NCBI GenBank assembly: GCA_963794235.1
Contig: CAWCCP010000011.1
Coordinates: 25,490-89,489 of the forward strand
Source: an uncultured bacterium
GTDB taxonomy: Bacteria > Patescibacteriota > Saccharimonadia > Saccharimonadales > UBA4665
Length of the DNA stretch: 64,000 nucleotides
Direction of reading: 5' to 3'
Shown: positions 31,651-38,443 of the stretch, one piece after another
How positions within the stretch are numbered: position 1 is the first letter of the stretch
Layout: the number at the start of each line of letters is the position of its first letter
Made by a program: the position numbers and the translations under genes
Notes under the pieces: model-generated
What the model was told of the DNA's origin: nothing
What the model saw: the letters and a program-made list of their open reading frames with translations, nothing else
Databases searched by the model: none

Positions 31651-32576
31651 ACCTGAATCTCGAAACCTACCACCCCAGCTGTAACAACTGGTAGCCAAGC
31701 AGTACCCGCAGGTAATGCAGGGCGTAGCCCTGCAGACTCCTCGGGAAACTGGTCTGGAGGTGCAGGTGTTCTTTCAGGTAGTCGAAGACGGTTTCAATCT
31801 TTGGTCTACGCTTCAGGAGCTTCCACTGGCTTTTGGTGATGACCTGTTTCTGCTGTTTGTAGTGTAGTGGTGTCAGAATGTAGGTACCAAAAGCTTTACG
31901 GACCTTACGGTGTAGTGGTGCACTACGGTAGCCACTGTCACCAACAGCTAGCTTGGTGTACTCATTCACGAGCTTTGGTATAGCTCGGCTGTCATGGACT
32001 GTCGCTGTGGTAAAGACGTAGGCACAGAGCTTACCATCGTTGTCCACGGATGCATGCAACTTAAAGCCATAGTGCTCACCTTGCCAATTGTGCCCGGTGT
32101 GAGCATAGCCACGAGCGGTTTTGTGGAACTTTCTCCGTACCAGTCGACAAACTTCCAGCATGGTACTGTCTATGAAGCGAAGCTGCGCTTCGCTCATGAG
32201 TAAGTCGTCTAGGATAGTAGTAATCTGCGGAATGACCCGGTGACAATGCTTCAGGAAGTTCTGGTAGTTGGGTAGGGCTGGAAAGTCTGTTTGGTGATAC
32301 TGGATAACCCAGTCGTAGATCTGGCGAATAGTGTGCTGTTGAGCAGTAAACAGACTGAAGACAAGTATGGTAATGACCTCACTGTCACGCAGGACACTTG
32401 GTCGTCCGCCTTTGCTCTTTACTAGAGTAGGTGTCGCTAAGGCGTCGTCTATCCAGACGAATAACGGTAGTATATGATGTTGGTGCAGCACTGCCATCTT
32501 TGTTTTCTCCTTTTTGTTTAGACACTAAAAGAGTAACAGACTATGGAGTGCTGCTATTTAGTTTCGAGATTCAGGT
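31651..32576 (-). mobile_element. IS982-like insertion sequence, complete, with 8-bp target-site duplication
   Basis: Terminal inverted repeats ACCTGAATCTCGAAAC (31651-31666) and GTTTCGAGATTCAGGT (32561-32576). It is flanked by direct TATTCTTT at 31643-31650 and 32577-32584. Higher GC than its surroundings. Confidence 0.8.
31667..32497 (-). CDS. DDE transposase (IS982/IS5-like)
   Basis: 276 aa: GGRPSVLRDSEVITILVF...FIDSTMLEVC...GFKLHASV...VGDSGY...RPKIETVFDYLK pattern. Confidence 0.8.
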   Translation of the reverse strand: MAVLHQHHILPLFVWIDDALATPTLVKSKGGRPSVLRDSEVITILVFSLFTAQQHTIRQIYDWVIQYHQTDFPALPNYQNFLKHCHRVIPQITTILDDLLMSEAQLRFIDSTMLEVCRLVRRKFHKTARGYAHTGHNWQGEHYGFKLHASVDNDGKLCAYVFTTATVHDSRAIPKLVNEYTKLAVGDSGYRSAPLHRKVRKAFGTYILTPLHYKQQKQVITKSQWKLLKRRPKIETVFDYLKEHLHLQTSFPRSLQGYALHYLRVLLGYQLLQLGW

Positions 32577-32624: not shown

Positions 32625-32951
32625 ATGGTTGAACAATCTTTCAGTTTAGACGCTATCTTCGGATCGTTAAGCGATCCTACCAGGAGAGATATTATAAAAC
32701 GTATTAGCGAACGTAGTATGAGTGTCAGTGCTATCGCAAAACATTATAAATTTTCTTTTGCTGGAGTAGCGAAGCACCTTGAGGTACTAGAGCGTGCAGG
32801 TCTAATACGTAAAGCCAGAAAAGGGAAAGAACAAATAGTTACAATTGATCCAGCGGCATTAGCCGCTGCGAATGGTTATTTAGAAGACTACAAACAACTC
32901 TGGGAGCAACGACTCGATTCATTGGATCAATTTTTAAAAACAATAAAGTAG
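32625..32951 (+). CDS. ArsR/SmtB-family transcriptional regulator
   Basis: FGSLSDPTRRDIIKRIS...MSVSAIAKHYKFSFAGVAKHLEVLERAGLI. Confidence 0.85.
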   Translation: MVEQSFSLDAIFGSLSDPTRRDIIKRISERSMSVSAIAKHYKFSFAGVAKHLEVLERAGLIRKARKGKEQIVTIDPAALAAANGYLEDYKQLWEQRLDSLDQFLKTIK

Positions 32952-32964
32952 AGAGGAACGAGTT

Positions 32965-33336
32965 ATGACTGAAGATAAACTAGCAAAGAAAAACGCAAAG
33001 AAAGCTGAAGATGAAAAAGCAGTTCGCGAGGCGATCACTGCAATGCCCGACAAAGATCGTGCCGTGGGTGAAAAACTCGATGCTATTATCAAAGCTAGCG
33101 CACCTGATCTTTTACCGAGAACCTGGTACGGAATGCCCGCATACAGTGACGGTAACAAGATAGTCTGCTTTTTTCGAAGTCGGCAAAAATTTGGTGAGAG
33201 ATTCATGACACTAGGCTTTAACGATGTAGCAAAACTTGATGACGGTTCTATGTGGCCCATCTACTATGCCCTAACAGAGTTAACCGCTAGCGACGAGGCA
33301 AAGATCGCAGCACTCGTTAAAAAAGCAGTGAGTTGA
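32965..33336 (+). CDS. DUF1801 (YdhG-like) domain protein
   Basis: 123 aa. The WYGMPAYSDGNKIVCFF pattern and position in an ArsR-SRPBCC operon are typical. Confidence 0.6.
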   Translation: MTEDKLAKKNAKKAEDEKAVREAITAMPDKDRAVGEKLDAIIKASAPDLLPRTWYGMPAYSDGNKIVCFFRSRQKFGERFMTLGFNDVAKLDDGSMWPIYYALTELTASDEAKIAALVKKAVS

Positions 33337-33379
33337 ACATAAAACTTTAATTTTTAACAGAACTAAAAAGGAGAAAACG

Positions 33380-33859
33380 ATGGCACCAATTAAAGAAATC
33401 GAGTTTGAACGAATAGTTAATTCCTCGCCTGAGACAGTTTGGCAGGCATGGACCGATCCAGAGATGCTAAAGCAATGGTGGGGACCAGAAAACGTTAGCA
33501 TTCCAGAATGCGAAGTAGACCTACGAATAGGCGGAAAATTTTATCTCGTCATGGAAGCTGGCGAAGGAATGGGACCATACAAAGGGACAAGATGGCCAAT
33601 GGAAGCCAAATATACAATTATTGAACAGAATCTAAGGCTATCCTACGCAGCAAAAGCGTGGACTGAAGGCCAAGAAGATACGACTGAAATTGATCAAGTA
33701 ACTGATCTCATCCTGTCTAATGAAAATGGAAAGACAAAAATGAAAGTGAAAGCCGCGATTAACAAGACTGGATCGAATGCCGGTATGGCAGTCCAGGGGA
33801 TGGAACATGGTTTTAATCAACAGTTCGATAAACTCAATATATTTTTGGAAAAAAATTAG
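33380..33859 (+). CDS. SRPBCC/AHSA1-family protein
   Basis: SPETVWQAWTDPEMLKQWWGP is the typical N-terminus of AHSA1-like START-fold proteins. Confidence 0.75.
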   Translation: MAPIKEIEFERIVNSSPETVWQAWTDPEMLKQWWGPENVSIPECEVDLRIGGKFYLVMEAGEGMGPYKGTRWPMEAKYTIIEQNLRLSYAAKAWTEGQEDTTEIDQVTDLILSNENGKTKMKVKAAINKTGSNAGMAVQGMEHGFNQQFDKLNIFLEKN

Positions 33860-33905: not shown

Positions 33906-34901
33906 ATGAAAAACATACTTACTAACGACGACTTATTTAATCCTAAAGCACTCTTGCTTGAAAAAATTAAAGTACGAGGCGGCTGGGTTAACACGCATGC
34001 GCATATCGATCGAGCCTACATTTTAAACGAAGAGAACTTCAAATTAACCTACGCGCCATTGCAGGAAAAATGGAATTTTCCAGACGAATATAAAAGGAAA
34101 GCAACGGTTGATGATATTTATACCAATATGGCCCGTGCTATTGAGAGAATGTGCGAACAGGGAGTCCAAGCAATCGGGACATTTATAGACGTTGATCCAG
34201 TTATTGAAGACAAAGCAATTAAAGCAGCCCAAAAATTACGTGACACATTTAAGACCGATATTAAGATTAAATATATCAATCAGGTAGTAAAAGGCGTACT
34301 GGAGCCCGATGCCCGCCGTTGGTTCGATATTGGTGCTGAATTTGTCGACATAATTGGTGGTCTTCCAGAAAAAGATGCCGGTCATGAAGCCGAACATTTG
34401 GATGTGCTGTTTGAGGCAGCCAAAAAAAATGGCAACAAAATGCTACACGTTCATGTTGATCAATTTGATTTGCCAAGTCAGCGTGATACCGAACTTTTAG
34501 TTGATAAAACAATAGAGCACGGCTACCAGGAGAAGGTTGTCGCGATACACTGTATATCAGTTGCCGCGCACCCTAAAGCGTATCGAGAGAAATTATATGT
34601 AAAAATGAAAGATGCCGGTGTAATGGTTGTCACGTGCCCTGACGGATGGATCGACTGGCGACGCAGGGAAGAGCTTGCTCCCTTGCACAATTCCATTGCC
34701 CCCGTTGACGAAATGGTGCCTGCTGGTTTAACCGTCTCCCTTGGTACTGATAATATTCAAGATATCTATAAACCTTTCGTTGATGGAGATATGTGGACCG
34801 AGTTGCGCTTTCTACTTGAAACATGTCACTTTTATGATCTTGACGCACTTGCAGATATCGCGTCGGTTAACGGATTGAAAACACTTGGTATAGAAAATTA
34901 A
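33906..34901 (+). CDS. amidohydrolase, cytosine deaminase (CodA)-like
   Basis: Metal-ligand pattern NTHAHIDRAY, HVHVDQ, AIHCIS, LGTDN in the order expected for CodA-type deaminases. 331 aa. Confidence 0.6.
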   Translation: MKNILTNDDLFNPKALLLEKIKVRGGWVNTHAHIDRAYILNEENFKLTYAPLQEKWNFPDEYKRKATVDDIYTNMARAIERMCEQGVQAIGTFIDVDPVIEDKAIKAAQKLRDTFKTDIKIKYINQVVKGVLEPDARRWFDIGAEFVDIIGGLPEKDAGHEAEHLDVLFEAAKKNGNKMLHVHVDQFDLPSQRDTELLVDKTIEHGYQEKVVAIHCISVAAHPKAYREKLYVKMKDAGVMVVTCPDGWIDWRRREELAPLHNSIAPVDEMVPAGLTVSLGTDNIQDIYKPFVDGDMWTELRFLLETCHFYDLDALADIASVNGLKTLGIEN

Positions 34902-34989
34902 AGAAGTTGTTACATCTATAGTAAAGTGGATATCTCCTAAGACTATATTTTGTATTTTTTAAATAATATGCTATAAATATACTTATATT

Positions 34990-37239
34990 ATGCCTCACGG
35001 ACCAATATCCCCAGATGGAGTGTTGTCGCACTATCCAGATGCGACTCCACACAGTACTAACTTATCAATATCATTTCGCGCAGCTGATTTAGGTGAAGAA
35101 TTTGTACAGAGAGTTTTAACAAGAGATGAAAAATTAAGGCTTTACGGCAGAAGCGTGCTTGCACAGGCCGGAATCGATATTGCGCAGCCTACAGACGTAA
35201 TGCCGATCGTCGATGATAGTATTCTGTATGTACCGATTTCAATACAATCACATTCAACACTTGGTCATCAAATTGCAAATGACATCGGTGCAATACAGTG
35301 TGAAACTGGGCAAGGTAAGCAACTCAAGCGTCGAGATGAAGGCATTCGTTTTGGGAGATTTGTCGATTATAGCCAACTAGTACGAGTAGAAGCTGCCGAG
35401 GCAATGGACGCAACAAGAGGTTTATTGGTAGGTTTTAATGATACGATTAATGGCAACGCAAGTTCGGCCGAAAAAAGGAGGATTAATCCTGACGGATCCG
35501 TAAGTATAGGGATAAGTCCAGTCGAATTTGTTATCAACACGACAATTATGGGCTCCGATAATCGTTTTGATGCTTTACGACATGGTCGTGCAGGCCTGAT
35601 ACCCTTTATGGACAGCATTAATCATGAACCGGGCGATCCAATACCCGAATATTTAATAGGAGGAGTAATTCTGTCCTCTGGCCCTTATCATATGAACATC
35701 CGATCCGAGGGGGGTAAGGGTCGGCAAGTACCGAGTGGCAGTTTTATTGACGGAGGACGCCTGATGGGCATTGGCGAACAATTGGGAAGCTATGAAGGAC
35801 ACCGTCAGGTTGAGCTGGTTAGCCCGCAAGATGACAAACCTCCACTAACTTTTGACGAAACATCCGTTACGTTAGATTTATATCGTAACCGTGAACCGCA
35901 AGTCGGCCCACATCGCACATTCATTGATTGGCGAAGCAGCCCTGAGACCCGACGCAGGTTACATAAAACCGGTATTAGTGCTCTTGAGGTAGTGCAGGCC
36001 GCAGACCCCTCAACTCAGGAGGCATTGCTTTCATTCGTGGCAAACGATGAAGTAGCCGGTATCGTACTATCTCGTCATGGTGCAACAATTGCACCAGCAG
36101 GTGTTACATCCAAATTTAATGCCCAGAATATACGTAAGGCCGCACAAAGCGTTGGAGCAAACAGATCAATTCCACCAGAATTGAGCAGCCTGACTGGTTT
36201 CGTGACTGCTCTCGAAAATGCCGGCGATCGATCACGTATCCTTGTAGCGGATCAACTTGAAGTTAAGTATTTCCGGGGGATTGTGGATTCCGGTGACATT
36301 AGGGCAATCCTGGTACGAAACTTCGGTAATACGGCTCTGAGCAAAGAAGATCACAGTGCTTTAGTGGGTATAGTAGAGAATGGGGTATCCGTTGGTTGGT
36401 CACCTGAAGGAGACGCATACCGCGAGATGCATCGTAGCGGCTTATGGATTAAGCCCGAATTTGAAGATAGGATGGAAGATCTCGATTTAGTGGTAGCCAT
36501 GTACGGTGGAAATAAAGACTTGGTGGGAGATGCGCTCCAACCCCAAATCGACAAATTCTTTGATGGCTTAACCGCTATTGTTCCCGCTCAAAATCTGGCT
36601 GTTGCTCACGGTAGCGGCCCAGGTGTCATGAGGGTAGCCGATGAAACAGCACGCAGTAAAAATATTATGAGTCTAGGCGTGGGTATATCTGTAGAAAAGA
36701 TTGGTCAGGAAGAGAATACCCGCCCAGACGGTGTCGTTAGATTTGCTACAAGCGATCGGCTTTACCGTCAACAAATGCTTGATACCTTCAATACTATTTC
36801 AATTTTTAATGCAGGAGGCTATGGAACTTTAGAAGAAATGGCTATTTCCGTTTGCACACATAAATTACTTTCATGCCTGCCTACACCAAAAATAGCAATT
36901 GATCCCGATGGTTATTACAGGAATGCTGATCGAATGATTAGCGAAGTGGCACAACGAACAAATATACAAGCCGGTGGCGGCACCATTGATATTGCTGAGC
37001 ATCCATTTGGAGATGCTTGGGTACCGAATACATTTCATCGTGTTAAAGATTATGACCAAGCCCTCGAAATTATAAAAAAATTCACTAATGATCCTGCCGC
37101 ATATTGGCGTGAAGCTGGTATACCAGCAGAAAAAATACAAATCGCTTATGCAAGCCACCAACGTCGCTTAGCAGAAGTAGGCATGAATATTCCCACATAT
37201 ATGAGACGCGCAGCAGAGAGTTATATACAAGCAGCGTAA
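34990..37239 (+). CDS. 749-aa protein with an unknown ~480-aa N-terminal region and a C-terminal LOG/TIGR00730 (PpnN-like nucleotide nucleosidase) domain
   Basis: The C-terminal third has GSGPGVMRVADE... and NAGGYGTLEEM (PGGxGTxxE-type LOG motif) followed by DPDGYYRN. No motif was recognised in the N-terminal part. Confidence 0.6.
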   Translation: MPHGPISPDGVLSHYPDATPHSTNLSISFRAADLGEEFVQRVLTRDEKLRLYGRSVLAQAGIDIAQPTDVMPIVDDSILYVPISIQSHSTLGHQIANDIGAIQCETGQGKQLKRRDEGIRFGRFVDYSQLVRVEAAEAMDATRGLLVGFNDTINGNASSAEKRRINPDGSVSIGISPVEFVINTTIMGSDNRFDALRHGRAGLIPFMDSINHEPGDPIPEYLIGGVILSSGPYHMNIRSEGGKGRQVPSGSFIDGGRLMGIGEQLGSYEGHRQVELVSPQDDKPPLTFDETSVTLDLYRNREPQVGPHRTFIDWRSSPETRRRLHKTGISALEVVQAADPSTQEALLSFVANDEVAGIVLSRHGATIAPAGVTSKFNAQNIRKAAQSVGANRSIPPELSSLTGFVTALENAGDRSRILVADQLEVKYFRGIVDSGDIRAILVRNFGNTALSKEDHSALVGIVENGVSVGWSPEGDAYREMHRSGLWIKPEFEDRMEDLDLVVAMYGGNKDLVGDALQPQIDKFFDGLTAIVPAQNLAVAHGSGPGVMRVADETARSKNIMSLGVGISVEKIGQEENTRPDGVVRFATSDRLYRQQMLDTFNTISIFNAGGYGTLEEMAISVCTHKLLSCLPTPKIAIDPDGYYRNADRMISEVAQRTNIQAGGGTIDIAEHPFGDAWVPNTFHRVKDYDQALEIIKKFTNDPAAYWREAGIPAEKIQIAYASHQRRLAEVGMNIPTYMRRAAESYIQAA

Positions 37240-37369: not shown

Positions 37370-38443
37370 ATGCACGTGCATTCAATCTCTAAGCTAAAGA
37401 TAACAAAACGAGGCATCCAGATTGCATTAGGCTTATTATGGCTCTTAGATGGAGCGCTACAACTTCAACATCAAATGTTTAGCAGTGCGTTCGCAACACA
37501 AGTGATCGCGCCGGCTGGTCAGGGTCAACCGATTCCAGTGTATGGACCAATCAATTTCGAAATTCATATGCTGCTTTTACACCCCGCTCTCTATGACATG
37601 TTATTCGCGCTTGTTCAGCTCGCACTCGGAGTACTTATCTTACATAAAAAGACATCACAACTTGGGTTACGGACATCAGTTATTTGGGGATTTGCAGTCT
37701 GGTACTTAGGAGAGGGTATGGGAGGCTTGCTAAGTGGCCAGACTTCTGTTCTCATGGGCGCGCCGGGCGCGGCATTGATATATGCACTACTTGCTCTTGC
37801 TGTATTGCCAAGTAAAGAAAGAAAAGAATCAGATAGCAAAGATAAACCAGCTAGTTGGCTCCCAATAGTTTGGGCTGTTTTATGGTTCGTTGGGGCAATC
37901 TACCAGTTATTACCAGGCCAAAATTCGATTTCAGACCTATCCTCATCGATCGCAGCCAATGCTGGCAATGGCGCTCCTGGATGGCTAAGTTCAGTAGATA
38001 TTCACGTGTCAAATATCATAGCAGGCTTCGGGAAAAACGCTGCGATGAATACCAAGATGAAAGGCATGACTATGTCAAATGGCCAAATGGGACAATTTGC
38101 ACTTCAGACTCATCACAGTTCCGGGCTCTGGTTTATTATCTTGCTCGCTGCGATACAAGCCGCTATCGGTTTAATGGTGTTCTTACCACGCATATACAAA
38201 ATAACCGTAATATATATAGGTATAGCGCTATCACTCTTGTTCTGGTTGATTGGCCAAAGTCTTGGTGCGTACTTTTCCGGACTTGCGACCGATCCGAATA
38301 CGGCACCACTTATTATATTGCTCGGGGTGGCAGTTTTAGGGACAGATCGACTAAACTTCAAACGACTAAAAAACGGAATTAAAAATGCGGTGCAGTGGAT
38401 TGATAACGAGCTCGGTAATCGTCCAGTTATAAAAGCTCAGTAA
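37370..38443 (+). CDS. multi-pass membrane protein, hypothetical
   Basis: 357 aa with about 8 TM segments. The alternative-frame track ORF 37855-38382 was rejected. Confidence 0.6.
   Translation: MHVHSISKLKITKRGIQIALGLLWLLDGALQLQHQMFSSAFATQVIAPAGQGQPIPVYGPINFEIHMLLLHPALYDMLFALVQLALGVLILHKKTSQLGLRTSVIWGFAVWYLGEGMGGLLSGQTSVLMGAPGAALIYALLALAVLPSKERKESDSKDKPASWLPIVWAVLWFVGAIYQLLPGQNSISDLSSSIAANAGNGAPGWLSSVDIHVSNIIAGFGKNAAMNTKMKGMTMSNGQMGQFALQTHHSSGLWFIILLAAIQAAIGLMVFLPRIYKITVIYIGIALSLLFWLIGQSLGAYFSGLATDPNTAPLIILLGVAVLGTDRLNFKRLKNGIKNAVQWIDNELGNRPVIKAQ

What the first reader, a model, noticed from the sequence alone, without database searches (positions are those of the whole stretch)
33906..37239. 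Cytosine-deaminase-like amidohydrolase next to a 749-aa protein with an unknown 480-aa region fused to a LOG/PpnN-type domain
Seen in sequence: 33906-34901 has the CodA-type metal-ligand pattern (HAHID, HVHVDQ, HCIS, GTDN). The next gene, 88 nt downstream on the same strand, ends in a LOG-family domain (GSGPGVM..., NAGGYGTLEEM, DPDGYYRN). That domain is preceded by ~480 aa with no motif I recognise. Established knowledge: LOG-family PpnN (E. coli YgdH) cleaves nucleotide 5'-monophosphates to base plus ribose-5-phosphate. SLOG/LOG domains also serve as nucleotide-sensing or processing modules in conflict systems, for example ThsA of Thoeris. Inference: either a two-step pyrimidine salvage route (CMP to cytosine to uracil), useful to a genome with limited de novo synthesis, or a nucleotide-targeting effector with a novel N-terminal sensor domain.
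Basis: partly seen in the sequence, partly recalled or inferred. Interest (0 to 1): 0.6.

Follow-up and report, generated by a model that had tools for sequence, protein, structure and literature searches.

The report
Rare LOG nucleotide enzyme with deaminase-like domains
A small Saccharibacteria-type genome carries a rare 749-residue protein that joins a nucleotide-cleaving LOG domain to two domains shaped like dCTP and dCMP deaminases. The "cytosine deaminase" gene beside it is an unrelated neighbour that normally sits in an arginine-type operon.

Summary
Both genes are real and sit at the stated coordinates, and every quoted motif is present.

**The 749-aa protein**
- The C-terminal domain is a type-II-LOG-like phosphoribohydrolase. 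Its catalytic Arg593 and Glu616 are invariant in 52 relatives.
- The "unknown" first 490 residues match no Pfam, NCBIfam or PDB sequence. A confident model (pLDDT 93) resolves them into two parts.
- Residues 1-310 form a tandem dCTP-deaminase/dUTPase-like barrel module. The best match is the uncharacterised Agrobacterium protein 2r9q (Z 12.5).
- Residues 328-485 form a cytidine-deaminase-like fold with no zinc ligands.
- The fusion is rare: 74 clusters among 1.84 billion representative proteins, and 4 of 401 Saccharimonadia genomes.

**The pairing with the amidohydrolase is not conserved**
- None of four other loci has the amidohydrolase beside the fusion gene.
- The amidohydrolase belongs to family PRK06886. 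It has Gln where CodA has its catalytic Glu.
- In 7 of 9 relatives it follows an argininosuccinate-synthase and DDAH-like gene pair.

**Reading**
- Most likely this is a stand-alone pyrimidine-nucleotide N-glycosidase whose N-terminal modules bind, or possibly convert, (d)CTP/(d)UTP-type nucleotides.
- No defence signature was found.
- It is a new domain architecture of a known enzyme kind. The biochemistry is untested.

The parts
33906..34901 (+). PRK06886-family metal-dependent amidohydrolase (331 aa). It is a TIM barrel related to CodA and AtzC but lacks their beta-sandwich domain. It is not a demonstrated cytosine deaminase.
   Evidence: NCBIfam NF005365 scores 471 bits (cut-off 340), while cytosine-deaminase models score 66-88 bits against cut-offs of 403-483. 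The PDB alignment to 4r7w/CodA puts Gln186 at the catalytic-Glu position. The HxHxDQ element is invariant in 10 orthologues.
34902..34989 (+). AT-rich 88-nt spacer. It holds an extended -10-like element (TGnTATAAA at 34969-34977) 12 nt before the start codon. No terminator was detected.
   Evidence: Sequence read. The consensus scan found no terminator and no scored promoter here. The promoter reading is inference only.
34990..37239 (+). Whole 749-aa multidomain gene: Dcd-like tandem barrels, a CDA-like fold, a LOG domain and a helical tail.
   Evidence: Translation. Full-length homologues at 28-69% pairwise identity. AlphaFold model with pLDDT 84 and pTM 0.78.
34990..35379 (+). Domain 1a (aa 1-130): first dUTPase/dCTP-deaminase-like barrel. 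It carries the conserved Gly-Arg54-Ser55 element.
   Evidence: VIA-align to 2r9q_A gives Z 12.5 with 230 residues aligned over model 1-305. hhalign puts residues 50-69 on the Dcd Arg-Ser-Ser motif at low probability, 16%. Arg/Lys54 and Ser55 are conserved in 61-66 of 66 sequences.
35380..35919 (+). Domain 1b (aa 131-310): second dCTP-deaminase/dUTPase-like barrel. Conserved residues are Arg200, Ser229, Asp254, Arg257, Arg272, Gln273 and Glu275.
   Evidence: Foldseek hits 2qlp at E 3.7e-4. VIA-align gives Z 8-9.4 to Dcd and Dcd-dUTPase structures. hhalign of residues 132-302 against Dcd 3-156 is collinear, with Asp254 and Glu275 on the Dcd Asp/Glu pair.
35971..36444 (+). Domain 2 (aa 328-485): cytidine-deaminase-like fold without zinc ligands and with poor sequence conservation. 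The last ~35 residues may instead belong to the type-II LOG N-terminal extension.
   Evidence: VIA-align gives FdhD Z 8.2, dCMP deaminases Z 7.5-7.9 and the PurH C-terminal domain Z 7.3-7.4. There is no Cys in this stretch. Apart from Gly328 (69/69), Gly465 (56/61) and Gly484 (55/60), no position sampled there is conserved at 90% or more. Type-II LOG alignments start at residue 451.
36472..37089 (+). LOG (type-II-like) nucleoside-5'-monophosphate phosphoribohydrolase domain (aa 495-700). It carries Arg593 and the GGxGTxEE motif (Glu615, Glu616).
   Evidence: Pfam PF03641 E 1.3e-6. PDB profile hits 5wq3, 9us2 and 1wek, with alignment of the Arg and the motif. Foldseek 5wq3 E 6e-7. VIA-align 1wek Z 13.7, 5wq3 Z 13.5. 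Arg593, Gly612 and Glu616 are invariant in 52 sequences.
37090..37239 (+). C-terminal helical tail (aa 701-749) plus the stop codon.
   Evidence: Helices at 702-709, 713-729 and 736-748 have pLDDT 86-96. Pro702 is nearly invariant. There is no Pfam match.

Best explanation
Gene 34990-37239 encodes a stand-alone, rare multidomain nucleotide enzyme. Its C-terminal domain is a type-II-LOG-like phosphoribohydrolase. That domain most likely hydrolyses the N-glycosidic bond of a nucleoside 5'-monophosphate, releasing the free base and (deoxy)ribose 5-phosphate. This step is inferred from conserved catalytic residues. In front of it sit a tandem dCTP-deaminase/dUTPase-like barrel module and a zinc-less cytidine-deaminase-like domain. 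The barrel module has a conserved Arg/Ser/Asp/Glu cluster. Both are folds that handle (deoxy)cytidine and uridine nucleotides elsewhere. I therefore infer that they bind a pyrimidine (d)NTP or (d)NMP and gate or feed the LOG site. This would be analogous to the way the PAG domains of PpnN gate its LOG core. The likely physiological role is turnover of scavenged pyrimidine nucleotides into bases and pentose phosphate in a bacterium that depends on external nucleotides. The upstream gene 33906-34901 is a PRK06886-family amidohydrolase of unknown substrate. It normally belongs to an ArgG-MGS / DDAH-like operon, and its position next to the fusion gene is a rearrangement specific to this genome, not a pathway pairing.
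For: LOG domain: Pfam hit. Profile alignment to solved type-II LOGs places Arg593 and the GGxGTxEE motif on their catalytic Arg and motif. Arg593 and Glu616 are invariant in 52 sequences at a mean column identity of 24%. Structural matches reach Z 13.4-13.7 to type-II LOGs, above PpnN-like 3bq9 (11.1) and defence SLOGs (6.7-7.9). The papers PMC6717881 and bioRxiv 10.1101/2025.04.13.648610 name the motif Glu and an Arg as catalytic in LOG and PpnN. N-terminal folds: the model has pLDDT 93.4 and pTM 0.91. 2r9q matches at Z 12.5, Dcd and dUTPase at Z 8-9.4, and CDA-fold proteins at Z 7-8. Foldseek agrees independently, as do the weak BFVD hits. Polar residues are strongly conserved in domain 1. 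hhalign mapping onto Dcd motifs is collinear. Fusion constancy: most of the 74 relatives are 700-830 aa, and 38 of 52 long ones score on LOG. Nucleotide-related neighbours appear in three of five loci: UPRTase and TGT in L001, NUDIX in L023, and the amidohydrolase here. Non-pairing. Saccharibacteria depend on external nucleotides and have a complete pentose-phosphate pathway (PMC7786006).
Against: No biochemical data exist for any member. The N-terminal fold assignments rest on predicted structure. Sequence-level support is weak: hhalign probability is 16-33%, and there were no PDB sequence hits at E<=10. The closest structure, 2r9q, is itself uncharacterised. The LOG Pfam score only just passes (29.0 against 27), and TIGR00730 is far below its cut-off (34 against 96). 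Substrate identity (pyrimidine or purine, ribo or deoxy) is inferred from fold analogy only. Some LOG-fold proteins, such as the Moco carrier protein and DprA, are binders rather than enzymes.
Confidence: 0.55

Rival explanations
1. The N-terminal Dcd-like module is itself catalytic. The protein would then be a channelled multi-step enzyme. For example, (d)CTP would be converted to (d)UMP in the way bifunctional Dcd-dUTPases work. The LOG domain would then split the product into uracil and (deoxy)ribose 5-phosphate, and uracil could be recycled by UPRTase.
For: The Dcd-like Asp254/Glu275 pair and the Arg54-Ser55 element are conserved in about 90% of 66-69 sequences. By hhalign they fall on the Dcd catalytic motifs. 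Stand-alone forms of domain 1 of about 335 aa exist, the size of 2r9q. UPRTase lies 38 nt downstream of the homologue in L001.
Against: The motifs are split between two barrels. The Dcd second Arg is Gln59. The aromatic residue of the ID..aromatic..G motif is Arg257. hhalign probabilities are low. Fusion-bearing genomes G062, G331 and G007 keep an ordinary dcd-like gene, so there is no displacement.
Confidence: 0.22
2. One reading: the LOG protein cleaves CMP to cytosine, and the adjacent CodA-like amidohydrolase deaminates cytosine to uracil, forming a two-gene salvage operon.
For: The genes are on the same strand 88 nt apart with no terminator detected. The amidohydrolase is distantly related to CodA, at E 1e-14 to 2e-20 against solved cytosine deaminases.
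Against: The pairing is unique to this genome. Gln replaces the CodA catalytic Glu in all 10 orthologues. Cytosine-deaminase models score far below their cut-offs. The conserved context of the amidohydrolase is ArgG-MGS plus a DDAH-like gene. No clear UPRTase was found in this 66%-complete assembly. The genome has PyrF and CTP synthase.
Confidence: 0.08
3. A nucleotide-targeting conflict or defence effector, with the N-terminal region acting as a sensor for a phage or signal nucleotide and the LOG/SLOG domain as effector or sensor.
For: SLOG-superfamily domains occur in Thoeris ThsA and other defence proteins. Pfam LDcluster4 gives a sub-threshold hit. The gene is rare and patchily distributed. 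An IS transposase lies 2.5 kb upstream.
Against: There are no PADLOC matches for the protein or its neighbours. Neighbours in other genomes are housekeeping genes such as MgsA, MreB, a tRNA synthetase and a DEAD helicase. No partner gene is conserved. The domain is structurally closest to metabolic type-II LOGs at Z 13.7, against ThsA SLOG at Z 7.7. It was not found in viral contigs.
Confidence: 0.08
4. The LOG-fold domain is a non-catalytic ligand carrier or binder, like the Moco carrier protein or DprA, and the whole protein is a nucleotide-binding regulator.
For: MCP (Z 10.6) and DprA (Z 10.1) share the fold. The LOG HMM scores are marginal.
Against: The catalytic Arg and the Glu of the GGxGTxEE motif are invariant across 52 divergent sequences, which is the hallmark of active LOGs.
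Confidence: 0.07

Closest known systems
Type-II LOG phosphoribohydrolases (C. glutamicum 5wq3, T. thermophilus TT1465 1wek, S. coelicolor 5zi9, N. meningitidis YgdH 9us2)
   Same: The C-terminal domain (about 451/495-700) has the same fold, with Z 13.4-13.7 and 190-194 residues aligned. It has the same catalytic Arg and the GGxGTxEE motif.
   Different: Those proteins are single-domain, 200-260 aa. This one carries about 450-490 extra N-terminal residues and a 50-aa helical tail. The motif Pro is Ala here. TIGR00730 scores below its cut-off.
E. coli PpnN (YgdH): PAG1-LOG-PAG2 nucleotide 5'-monophosphate nucleosidase gated by (p)ppGpp
   Same: The concept is the same: a LOG catalytic core flanked by extra domains that could gate the site in response to a nucleotide (PMC6717881). 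The counterparts of Arg241, Glu263 and Glu264 are present.
   Different: There is no DUF4478 or DUF3412 match. The structural match is weaker than to plain LOGs (3bq9 Z 11.1; Foldseek 9hs1/6gfl E 3e-4 to 7e-4 with rmsd of about 14). The flanking domains here are Dcd-like and CDA-like.
Agrobacterium tumefaciens 'dCTP deaminase' 2r9q (long, tandem-barrel DCD-type protein)
   Same: It is the best structural match for residues 1-305 (Z 12.5, 230 residues aligned, covering chain 17-346). Its size matches the stand-alone domain-1 proteins of about 335 aa.
   Different: Identity is only 14%. There is no sequence-level match. 2r9q has no functional paper in the library searched and is not fused to a LOG domain.
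Homotrimeric dCTP deaminase / bifunctional Dcd-dUTPase (E. coli 1xs1, M. tuberculosis 2qlp/2qxx, M. jannaschii 1ogh)
   Same: Residues 131-310 share the fold (Z 8.7-9.4; Foldseek E 4e-4). Asp254 and Glu275 align with the Dcd Asp/Glu pair, and residues 53-55 align with the Arg-Ser-Ser motif.
   Different: The motifs are spread over two barrels. Arg replaces the sugar-stacking aromatic residue. No Dcd or dUTPase HMM reaches threshold. The genomes keep a separate dcd-like gene.
E. coli CodA and Klebsiella 4r7w cytosine / 5-methylcytosine deaminases, and AtzC (for the neighbouring amidohydrolase)
   Same: It has the same amidohydrolase TIM barrel, and the HxH, His, His and Asp metal ligands are conserved.
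   Different: It has Gln instead of the catalytic Glu and no beta-sandwich domain (331 aa against about 426). It belongs to a separate NCBIfam equivalog, PRK06886, named 'hypothetical protein'. Its conserved operon partners are ArgG-MGS and a DDAH-like gene.

Membership tests
LOG family (Pfam PF03641 / TIGR00730) | HMM score over the curated cut-off | tested here: inconclusive
   PF03641 scores 29.0 bits against a cut-off of 27, a marginal pass. TIGR00730 scores 34.3 against 96.35, a fail. 38 of 52 relatives score on PF03641 at E<=0.01.
LOG family (Pfam PF03641 / TIGR00730) | PGGxGTxxE motif with the catalytic Glu, plus the conserved upstream Arg | tested here: met
   The motif reads A-G-G-Y-G-T-L-E-E, with Pro replaced by Ala. 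Gly612, Glu616 and Arg593 are invariant in 52 sequences. The profile alignment puts them on the 5wq3 motif and Arg.
LOG family (Pfam PF03641 / TIGR00730) | LOG Rossmann-like fold | tested here: met
   1wek Z 13.7 (190 aligned, rmsd 3.3). 5wq3 Z 13.5. Foldseek E 6e-7.
LOG family (Pfam PF03641 / TIGR00730) | Nucleoside 5'-monophosphate phosphoribohydrolase activity | not testable with these tools
   This needs an enzyme assay.
PpnN (PAG1-MND-PAG2) | Flanking DUF4478 (PAG1) and DUF3412 (PAG2) domains | tested here: not met
   Neither Pfam family matches at E<=1. The N-terminal region has Dcd-like and CDA-like folds instead.
PpnN (PAG1-MND-PAG2) | (p)ppGpp-dependent activation | not testable with these tools
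   This needs biochemistry.
dCTP deaminase / dUTPase superfamily (domain 1) | Jelly-roll beta-barrel fold of Dcd and dUTPase | tested here: met
   2r9q Z 12.5. Dcd and Dcd-dUTPase Z 8-9.4. Foldseek 2qlp E 3.7e-4. The model has pLDDT 93.
dCTP deaminase / dUTPase superfamily (domain 1) | Match to the sequence models (TIGR02274, PF00692, Pfam DCD) | tested here: not met
   No Pfam or NCBIfam hit on residues 1-490. TIGR02274 and PF00692 find nothing in the genome. No PDB sequence hit at E<=10.
dCTP deaminase / dUTPase superfamily (domain 1) | Dcd catalytic set (Arg-Ser-Ser...Arg motif, Asp, catalytic Glu) in one site | tested here: inconclusive
   hhalign at probability 16-33% places Arg54/Ser55, Asp254 and Glu275 on these motifs. 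They lie in different barrels, and the second Arg is Gln59. No coordinates were available to check whether they form one pocket.
Zinc-dependent cytidine/dCMP deaminases (domain 2) | CDA alpha/beta fold | tested here: inconclusive
   Z is 7-8.2 to FdhD, dCMP deaminases and the PurH C-terminal domain, over 105-121 residues. This lies in the middling range by the tool's own note.
Zinc-dependent cytidine/dCMP deaminases (domain 2) | H/C-x-E and PCxxC zinc-binding motifs | tested here: not met
   There is no cysteine in residues 328-490. His363 is not conserved (13 of 64).
CodA-type cytosine deaminase (neighbouring gene) | Score over the cut-off of the cytosine-deaminase models | tested here: not met
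   It scores 66-88 bits against cut-offs of 403-483. It passes PRK06886 instead.
CodA-type cytosine deaminase (neighbouring gene) | Catalytic Glu of the HxxE motif (E. coli Glu217) | tested here: not met
   Gln186 aligns with it, and Gln is invariant in 10 orthologues.
CodA-type cytosine deaminase (neighbouring gene) | Metal ligands HxH, His, His and Asp | tested here: met
   They are conserved in all 10 orthologues.
Thoeris ThsA-type or other defence SLOG proteins | Match to defence-system models and a defence-gene context | tested here: not met
   PADLOC gives 0 families. Neighbours are housekeeping genes. ThsA SLOG matches at Z 7.7, against Z 13.7 for metabolic LOGs.

The most novel reading that the evidence does not exclude
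The protein is a self-contained three-module catabolic enzyme for deoxycytidine nucleotides. The Dcd-like module would convert dCTP or dCMP-type substrates. The CDA-like domain would hold or position them. The LOG domain would release uracil or cytosine plus deoxyribose 5-phosphate. DNA-scavenging Saccharibacteria could then turn deoxynucleotides into recyclable bases and pentose phosphate. Domain 1 would define a new, active branch of the dUTPase/Dcd superfamily whose active site is shared between two fused barrels.
Probability: 0.2. Interest if true: 0.65.

Novelty: new variant of a known kind. Interest (0 to 1): 0.45.

Why it matters
LOG enzymes are known as single-domain cytokinin activators or nucleotide nucleosidases, and as the (p)ppGpp-gated PpnN. 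Here a LOG core is permanently fused to two folds otherwise used for dCTP and dCMP chemistry. The family has only about 74 known clusters and is absent from Pfam. If the N-terminal modules sense or convert pyrimidine nucleotides, this would be a second, independent way of gating or feeding a LOG nucleosidase. It would also point to how ultra-small, nucleotide-dependent bacteria recycle scavenged nucleotides. The work also corrects a likely mis-annotation: the abundant PRK06886 proteins, auto-named "cytosine deaminase", lack the catalytic Glu and belong to an arginine-type operon.

Tried and rejected
- **Sequence annotation of residues 1-490.** Pfam, NCBIfam and PADLOC gave nothing. A PDB profile search gave 0 hits at E<=10. 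Pfam on ten stand-alone or short relatives gave nothing. The ESM Atlas best score was 0.79, "putative AMP nucleosidase", which is below the level the tool calls meaningful, so I disregarded it.
- **More gene neighbourhoods.** Two metagenome scans and one viral scan found no relative. A4 was too diverse to serve as a scan query. The genome-contig scan gave a single short contig.
- **Foldseek with the whole model.** It returned only LOG hits, so the N-terminus was folded separately.
- **Non-orthologous displacement of dcd or dut.** Rejected, because G062, G331 and G007 keep a dcd-like gene. The absence of dcd, dut and upp in G000 is uninformative at 66% completeness.
- **Defence reading.** Rejected for lack of any signal.
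- **Literature on 2r9q.** Only docking benchmarks were found.
- **Internal duplication within domain 1.** hhalign of domain 1a against 1b found no significant similarity.
- **TM7x metabolism paper.** A search for nucleoside or ribose use found nothing.

Full report
**Observation**

The window is part of contig C11 of a 1.17-Mb, 12-contig Saccharimonadia (Patescibacteria/CPR) assembly rated 66% complete. The nearest public record carrying a homologue is titled Candidatus Saccharimonadales. ORFs 33906-34901 (331 aa, P0001) and 34990-37239 (749 aa, P0002) are on the + strand, 88 nt apart.

**The 749-aa protein: sequence level**

- Pfam finds only a LOG domain (PF03641, residues 563-659, 29 bits against a cut-off of 27) and a sub-threshold SLOG cluster-4 hit.
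- NCBIfam finds only TIGR00730, below its cut-off.
- A word-indexed search of 5.8 billion proteins found four full-length relatives at 39-44% identity.
- An exhaustive HMMER search used a profile of the N-terminal 490 residues alone. It found 74 cluster representatives among 1.84 billion proteins, and most are 700-830 aa.
- Of 52 long members, 38 score on the LOG family, and no other Pfam family recurs.
- A few proteins of about 335 aa consist of residues 1-326 only. One 445-aa protein corresponds to residue 326 onwards. Residue 326 is therefore a natural domain border.
- Full-length copies occur in 4 of 401 sampled Saccharimonadia genomes. Among about 370 other Patescibacteria, one distant 927-aa form was found.
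- No copy was found in viral contigs or in two metagenome scans.

**LOG domain**

- A profile of nine family members hits solved type-II LOGs (5wq3, 9us2, 1wek, 5zi9).
- The alignment places Arg593 on the LOG catalytic Arg and places the GGxGTxEE stretch on the LOG motif.
- Arg593, Gly612 and Glu616 are invariant in 52 sequences whose mean column identity is 24%.
- In PpnN the equivalent residues (Arg241, Glu263, Glu264) are proposed as catalytic.
- Structurally the domain is closest to type-II LOGs (Z 13.4-13.7). PpnN-like 3bq9 follows at Z 11.1, and the defence SLOGs ThsA, YpsA and ShosA at Z 6.7-7.9 (Foldseek).
- It is the only LOG domain detected in the genome.
- I conclude that this is a catalytically competent LOG-type phosphoribohydrolase. 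It is not a PpnN orthologue, because PAG1 and PAG2 are absent.

**The "unknown" 490 residues**

The full-length AlphaFold model is good (pLDDT 84, pTM 0.78). The N-terminal part, folded with a 71-sequence alignment, is excellent (pLDDT 93.4, pTM 0.91).

*Residues 1-310 (domain 1)*
- An exhaustive structural comparison shows that residues 1-305 match the Agrobacterium protein 2r9q. This is a long, tandem-barrel protein deposited as "dCTP deaminase". The match has Z 12.5, with 230 residues aligned and almost the whole chain covered.
- Residues 131-310 match homotrimeric dCTP deaminases, Dcd-dUTPases and dUTPases at Z 8-9.4.
- Foldseek agrees independently (2qlp E 3.7e-4, 2r9q E 9e-4).
- The weak viral-library hits are again dCTP deaminase/dUTPase and dCMP deaminases.

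*Residues 328-485 (domain 2)*
- They match the cytidine-deaminase fold: FdhD Z 8.2, human and phage dCMP deaminases Z 7.5-7.9, and the PurH C-terminal domain Z 7.3-7.4.
- The stretch has no cysteine, and the would-be His is not conserved. It therefore cannot be a zinc deaminase.

*Sequence-level support is weak*
- The N-terminal profile hits no PDB sequence at E<=10.
- hhalign against a Dcd profile built from Saccharimonadia dcd genes gives only 16-33% probability. The alignments are nevertheless collinear with the structural ones.
- Residues 132-302 align with Dcd 3-156. Asp254 falls on the Dcd motif Asp and Glu275 on the Dcd catalytic Glu. Residues 50-69 fall on the Dcd Arg-Ser-Ser motif.
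- Conserved polar residues cluster in domain 1, each present in about 85-95% of 66-69 sequences: Arg/Lys54, Ser55, Arg123, Arg/Lys200, Ser229, Asp254, Arg257, Arg272, Gln273 and Glu275.
- Domain 2 is poorly conserved: apart from three glycines (Gly328, Gly465, Gly484), none of the positions I sampled there reaches 90%.
- Domain 1 therefore has a functional, arginine-rich site and probably binds a phosphorylated ligand. Whether it catalyses a reaction cannot be decided here.

**The neighbouring amidohydrolase and the proposed pairing**

*P0001 is not a CodA orthologue*
- P0001 passes the NCBIfam equivalog PRK06886, named "hypothetical protein", at 471 bits. It scores 66-88 bits on cytosine-deaminase models whose cut-offs are 403-483.
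- Alignment to solved cytosine deaminases shows the metal ligands. It also shows Gln186 where CodA-type enzymes have the catalytic Glu, and there is no room for the N-terminal beta-sandwich.
- The Gln is invariant in ten Saccharimonadia orthologues.
- The family is large, with 1755 proteins at E<=1e-30. These are auto-named "cytosine deaminase" or "amidohydrolase family protein".

*The pairing is not conserved*
- None of the four other loci with a fusion homologue has this amidohydrolase, or any other shared neighbour, within about 9 kb.
- In the class sample, 10 of 401 genomes have the amidohydrolase and 4 have the fusion. Only G000 and G331 have both, and in G331 they are 250 kb apart.
- In 7 of 9 other genomes the amidohydrolase directly follows a DDAH/arginine-deiminase-fold gene. 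That gene in turn follows one ending in an argininosuccinate-synthase C-terminal domain plus an MGS-like domain.
- In G000 that pair lies on contig C1, as a full 544-aa ArgG-MGS fusion and a 265-aa DDAH-like gene. There it is followed by a PKD-domain gene instead of the amidohydrolase.
- The adjacency in the window is therefore a lineage-specific rearrangement. An IS-type DDE transposase lies 1.4 kb upstream of the amidohydrolase.
- The spacer between the two genes has no terminator. It does have an extended -10-like element 12 nt before the start codon, so separate transcription is possible. This last point is inference.

**Context clues to function**

- Three of five loci place a nucleotide- or base-related gene next to the fusion gene. 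These are UPRTase followed by tRNA-guanine transglycosylase 38 nt downstream in L001, an overlapping NUDIX gene upstream in L023, and the amidohydrolase here.
- The remaining neighbours are housekeeping genes: MgsA, MreB, a class II tRNA synthetase, a DEAD helicase and a peroxiredoxin.
- There is no PADLOC hit.
- G000 has PyrF, CTP synthase and one CDA-family gene. No dcd, dut or clear upp was found in the 66%-complete assembly.
- Other fusion-bearing genomes keep a dcd-like gene, so the fusion does not replace Dcd.
- Published genome analyses describe Saccharibacteria as unable to make nucleotides de novo. They are reported to be rich in nucleases and to possess a complete pentose-phosphate pathway (PMC7786006).

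**Mechanism proposed**

- *Shown:* a conserved LOG catalytic core, two N-terminal domains with deoxycytidine-nucleotide-enzyme folds, a conserved polar site in domain 1, constancy of the fusion, and absence of a conserved partner.
- *Inferred:* the LOG domain hydrolyses a (deoxy)pyrimidine nucleoside monophosphate to base plus pentose phosphate. Domain 1, with domain 2 as scaffold, binds a pyrimidine (d)NTP or (d)NMP and gates or feeds the LOG site. This is conceptually like PAG-domain gating in PpnN.
- The main rival is that domain 1 is itself an enzyme, so that the protein channels (d)CTP-type substrates to base plus sugar phosphate.

**Novelty and verdict**

The enzyme kind (LOG) is known. 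The architecture and the N-terminal family are not described in Pfam, NCBIfam or PADLOC, nor in the papers I could search. The closest structural relative of domain 1 is uncharacterised. I class this as a new variant of a known kind and of moderate interest. Simple enzyme assays would decide the biochemistry.

**Caveats**

- Fold assignments rest on predicted structures.
- Neighbourhood evidence comes from five genomes only.
- The tallies include the unpublished genomes G245 and G341, but no specific claim rests on them.

Noticed in passing
L026-L033 (for example L026:68-2481); G000 contig C1, seen as L063:2637-5073: A conserved three-gene operon occurs in Saccharimonadia. It comprises an argininosuccinate synthase fused to a C-terminal MGS-like domain (544 aa in G000), a DDAH/arginine-deiminase-fold protein of about 267 aa, and the PRK06886 amidohydrolase, with gaps of 3-10 nt. 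In G000 the amidohydrolase has left the operon. This suggests an undescribed arginine/citrulline-related pathway, and it suggests that the automatic name 'cytosine deaminase' for this large family is wrong.
   Followed up: partly
window 31667-32497 (-) and 32625-33859 (+): An IS-type DDE transposase (PF13612) lies just upstream of an ArsR / DUF1801 / AHSA1(SRPBCC) trio that precedes the amidohydrolase. This is a possible cause of the local rearrangement.
   Followed up: no
window 34969-34989: An extended -10-like element (TGnTATAAA) sits 12 nt before the start codon of the 749-aa gene, with no Shine-Dalgarno sequence between. This suggests an own promoter and a nearly leaderless mRNA.
   Followed up: no
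P0030, P0033, P0034, P0038, P0045 (about 335 aa); P0029 (445 aa); P0053 (894 aa); L066 (G672, 927-aa frame): Natural split and expanded forms of the family exist. Some proteins consist of domain 1 alone and end exactly at the residue-326 border. One protein has domain 2 plus LOG only. Longer forms have a repeated segment between domain 1 and the LOG domain.
   Followed up: partly
G000 whole genome: No dcd (TIGR02274), dUTPase (PF00692) or clear UPRTase was detected, although 34 of 38 genomes of the same family have a dcd-like gene. The assembly is only 66% complete, so this may reflect missing sequence.
   Followed up: partly
window 34990-37239: The window's own 749-aa protein was not listed in the 5.8-billion-protein search, whereas the neighbouring amidohydrolase was. 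The gene may not have been called, or may have been called differently, in the source annotation.
   Followed up: no
window 37370-38443 (+): A 357-aa multi-pass membrane protein lies directly downstream, with no Pfam or PADLOC match. It is not conserved next to the fusion gene in other genomes.
   Followed up: no
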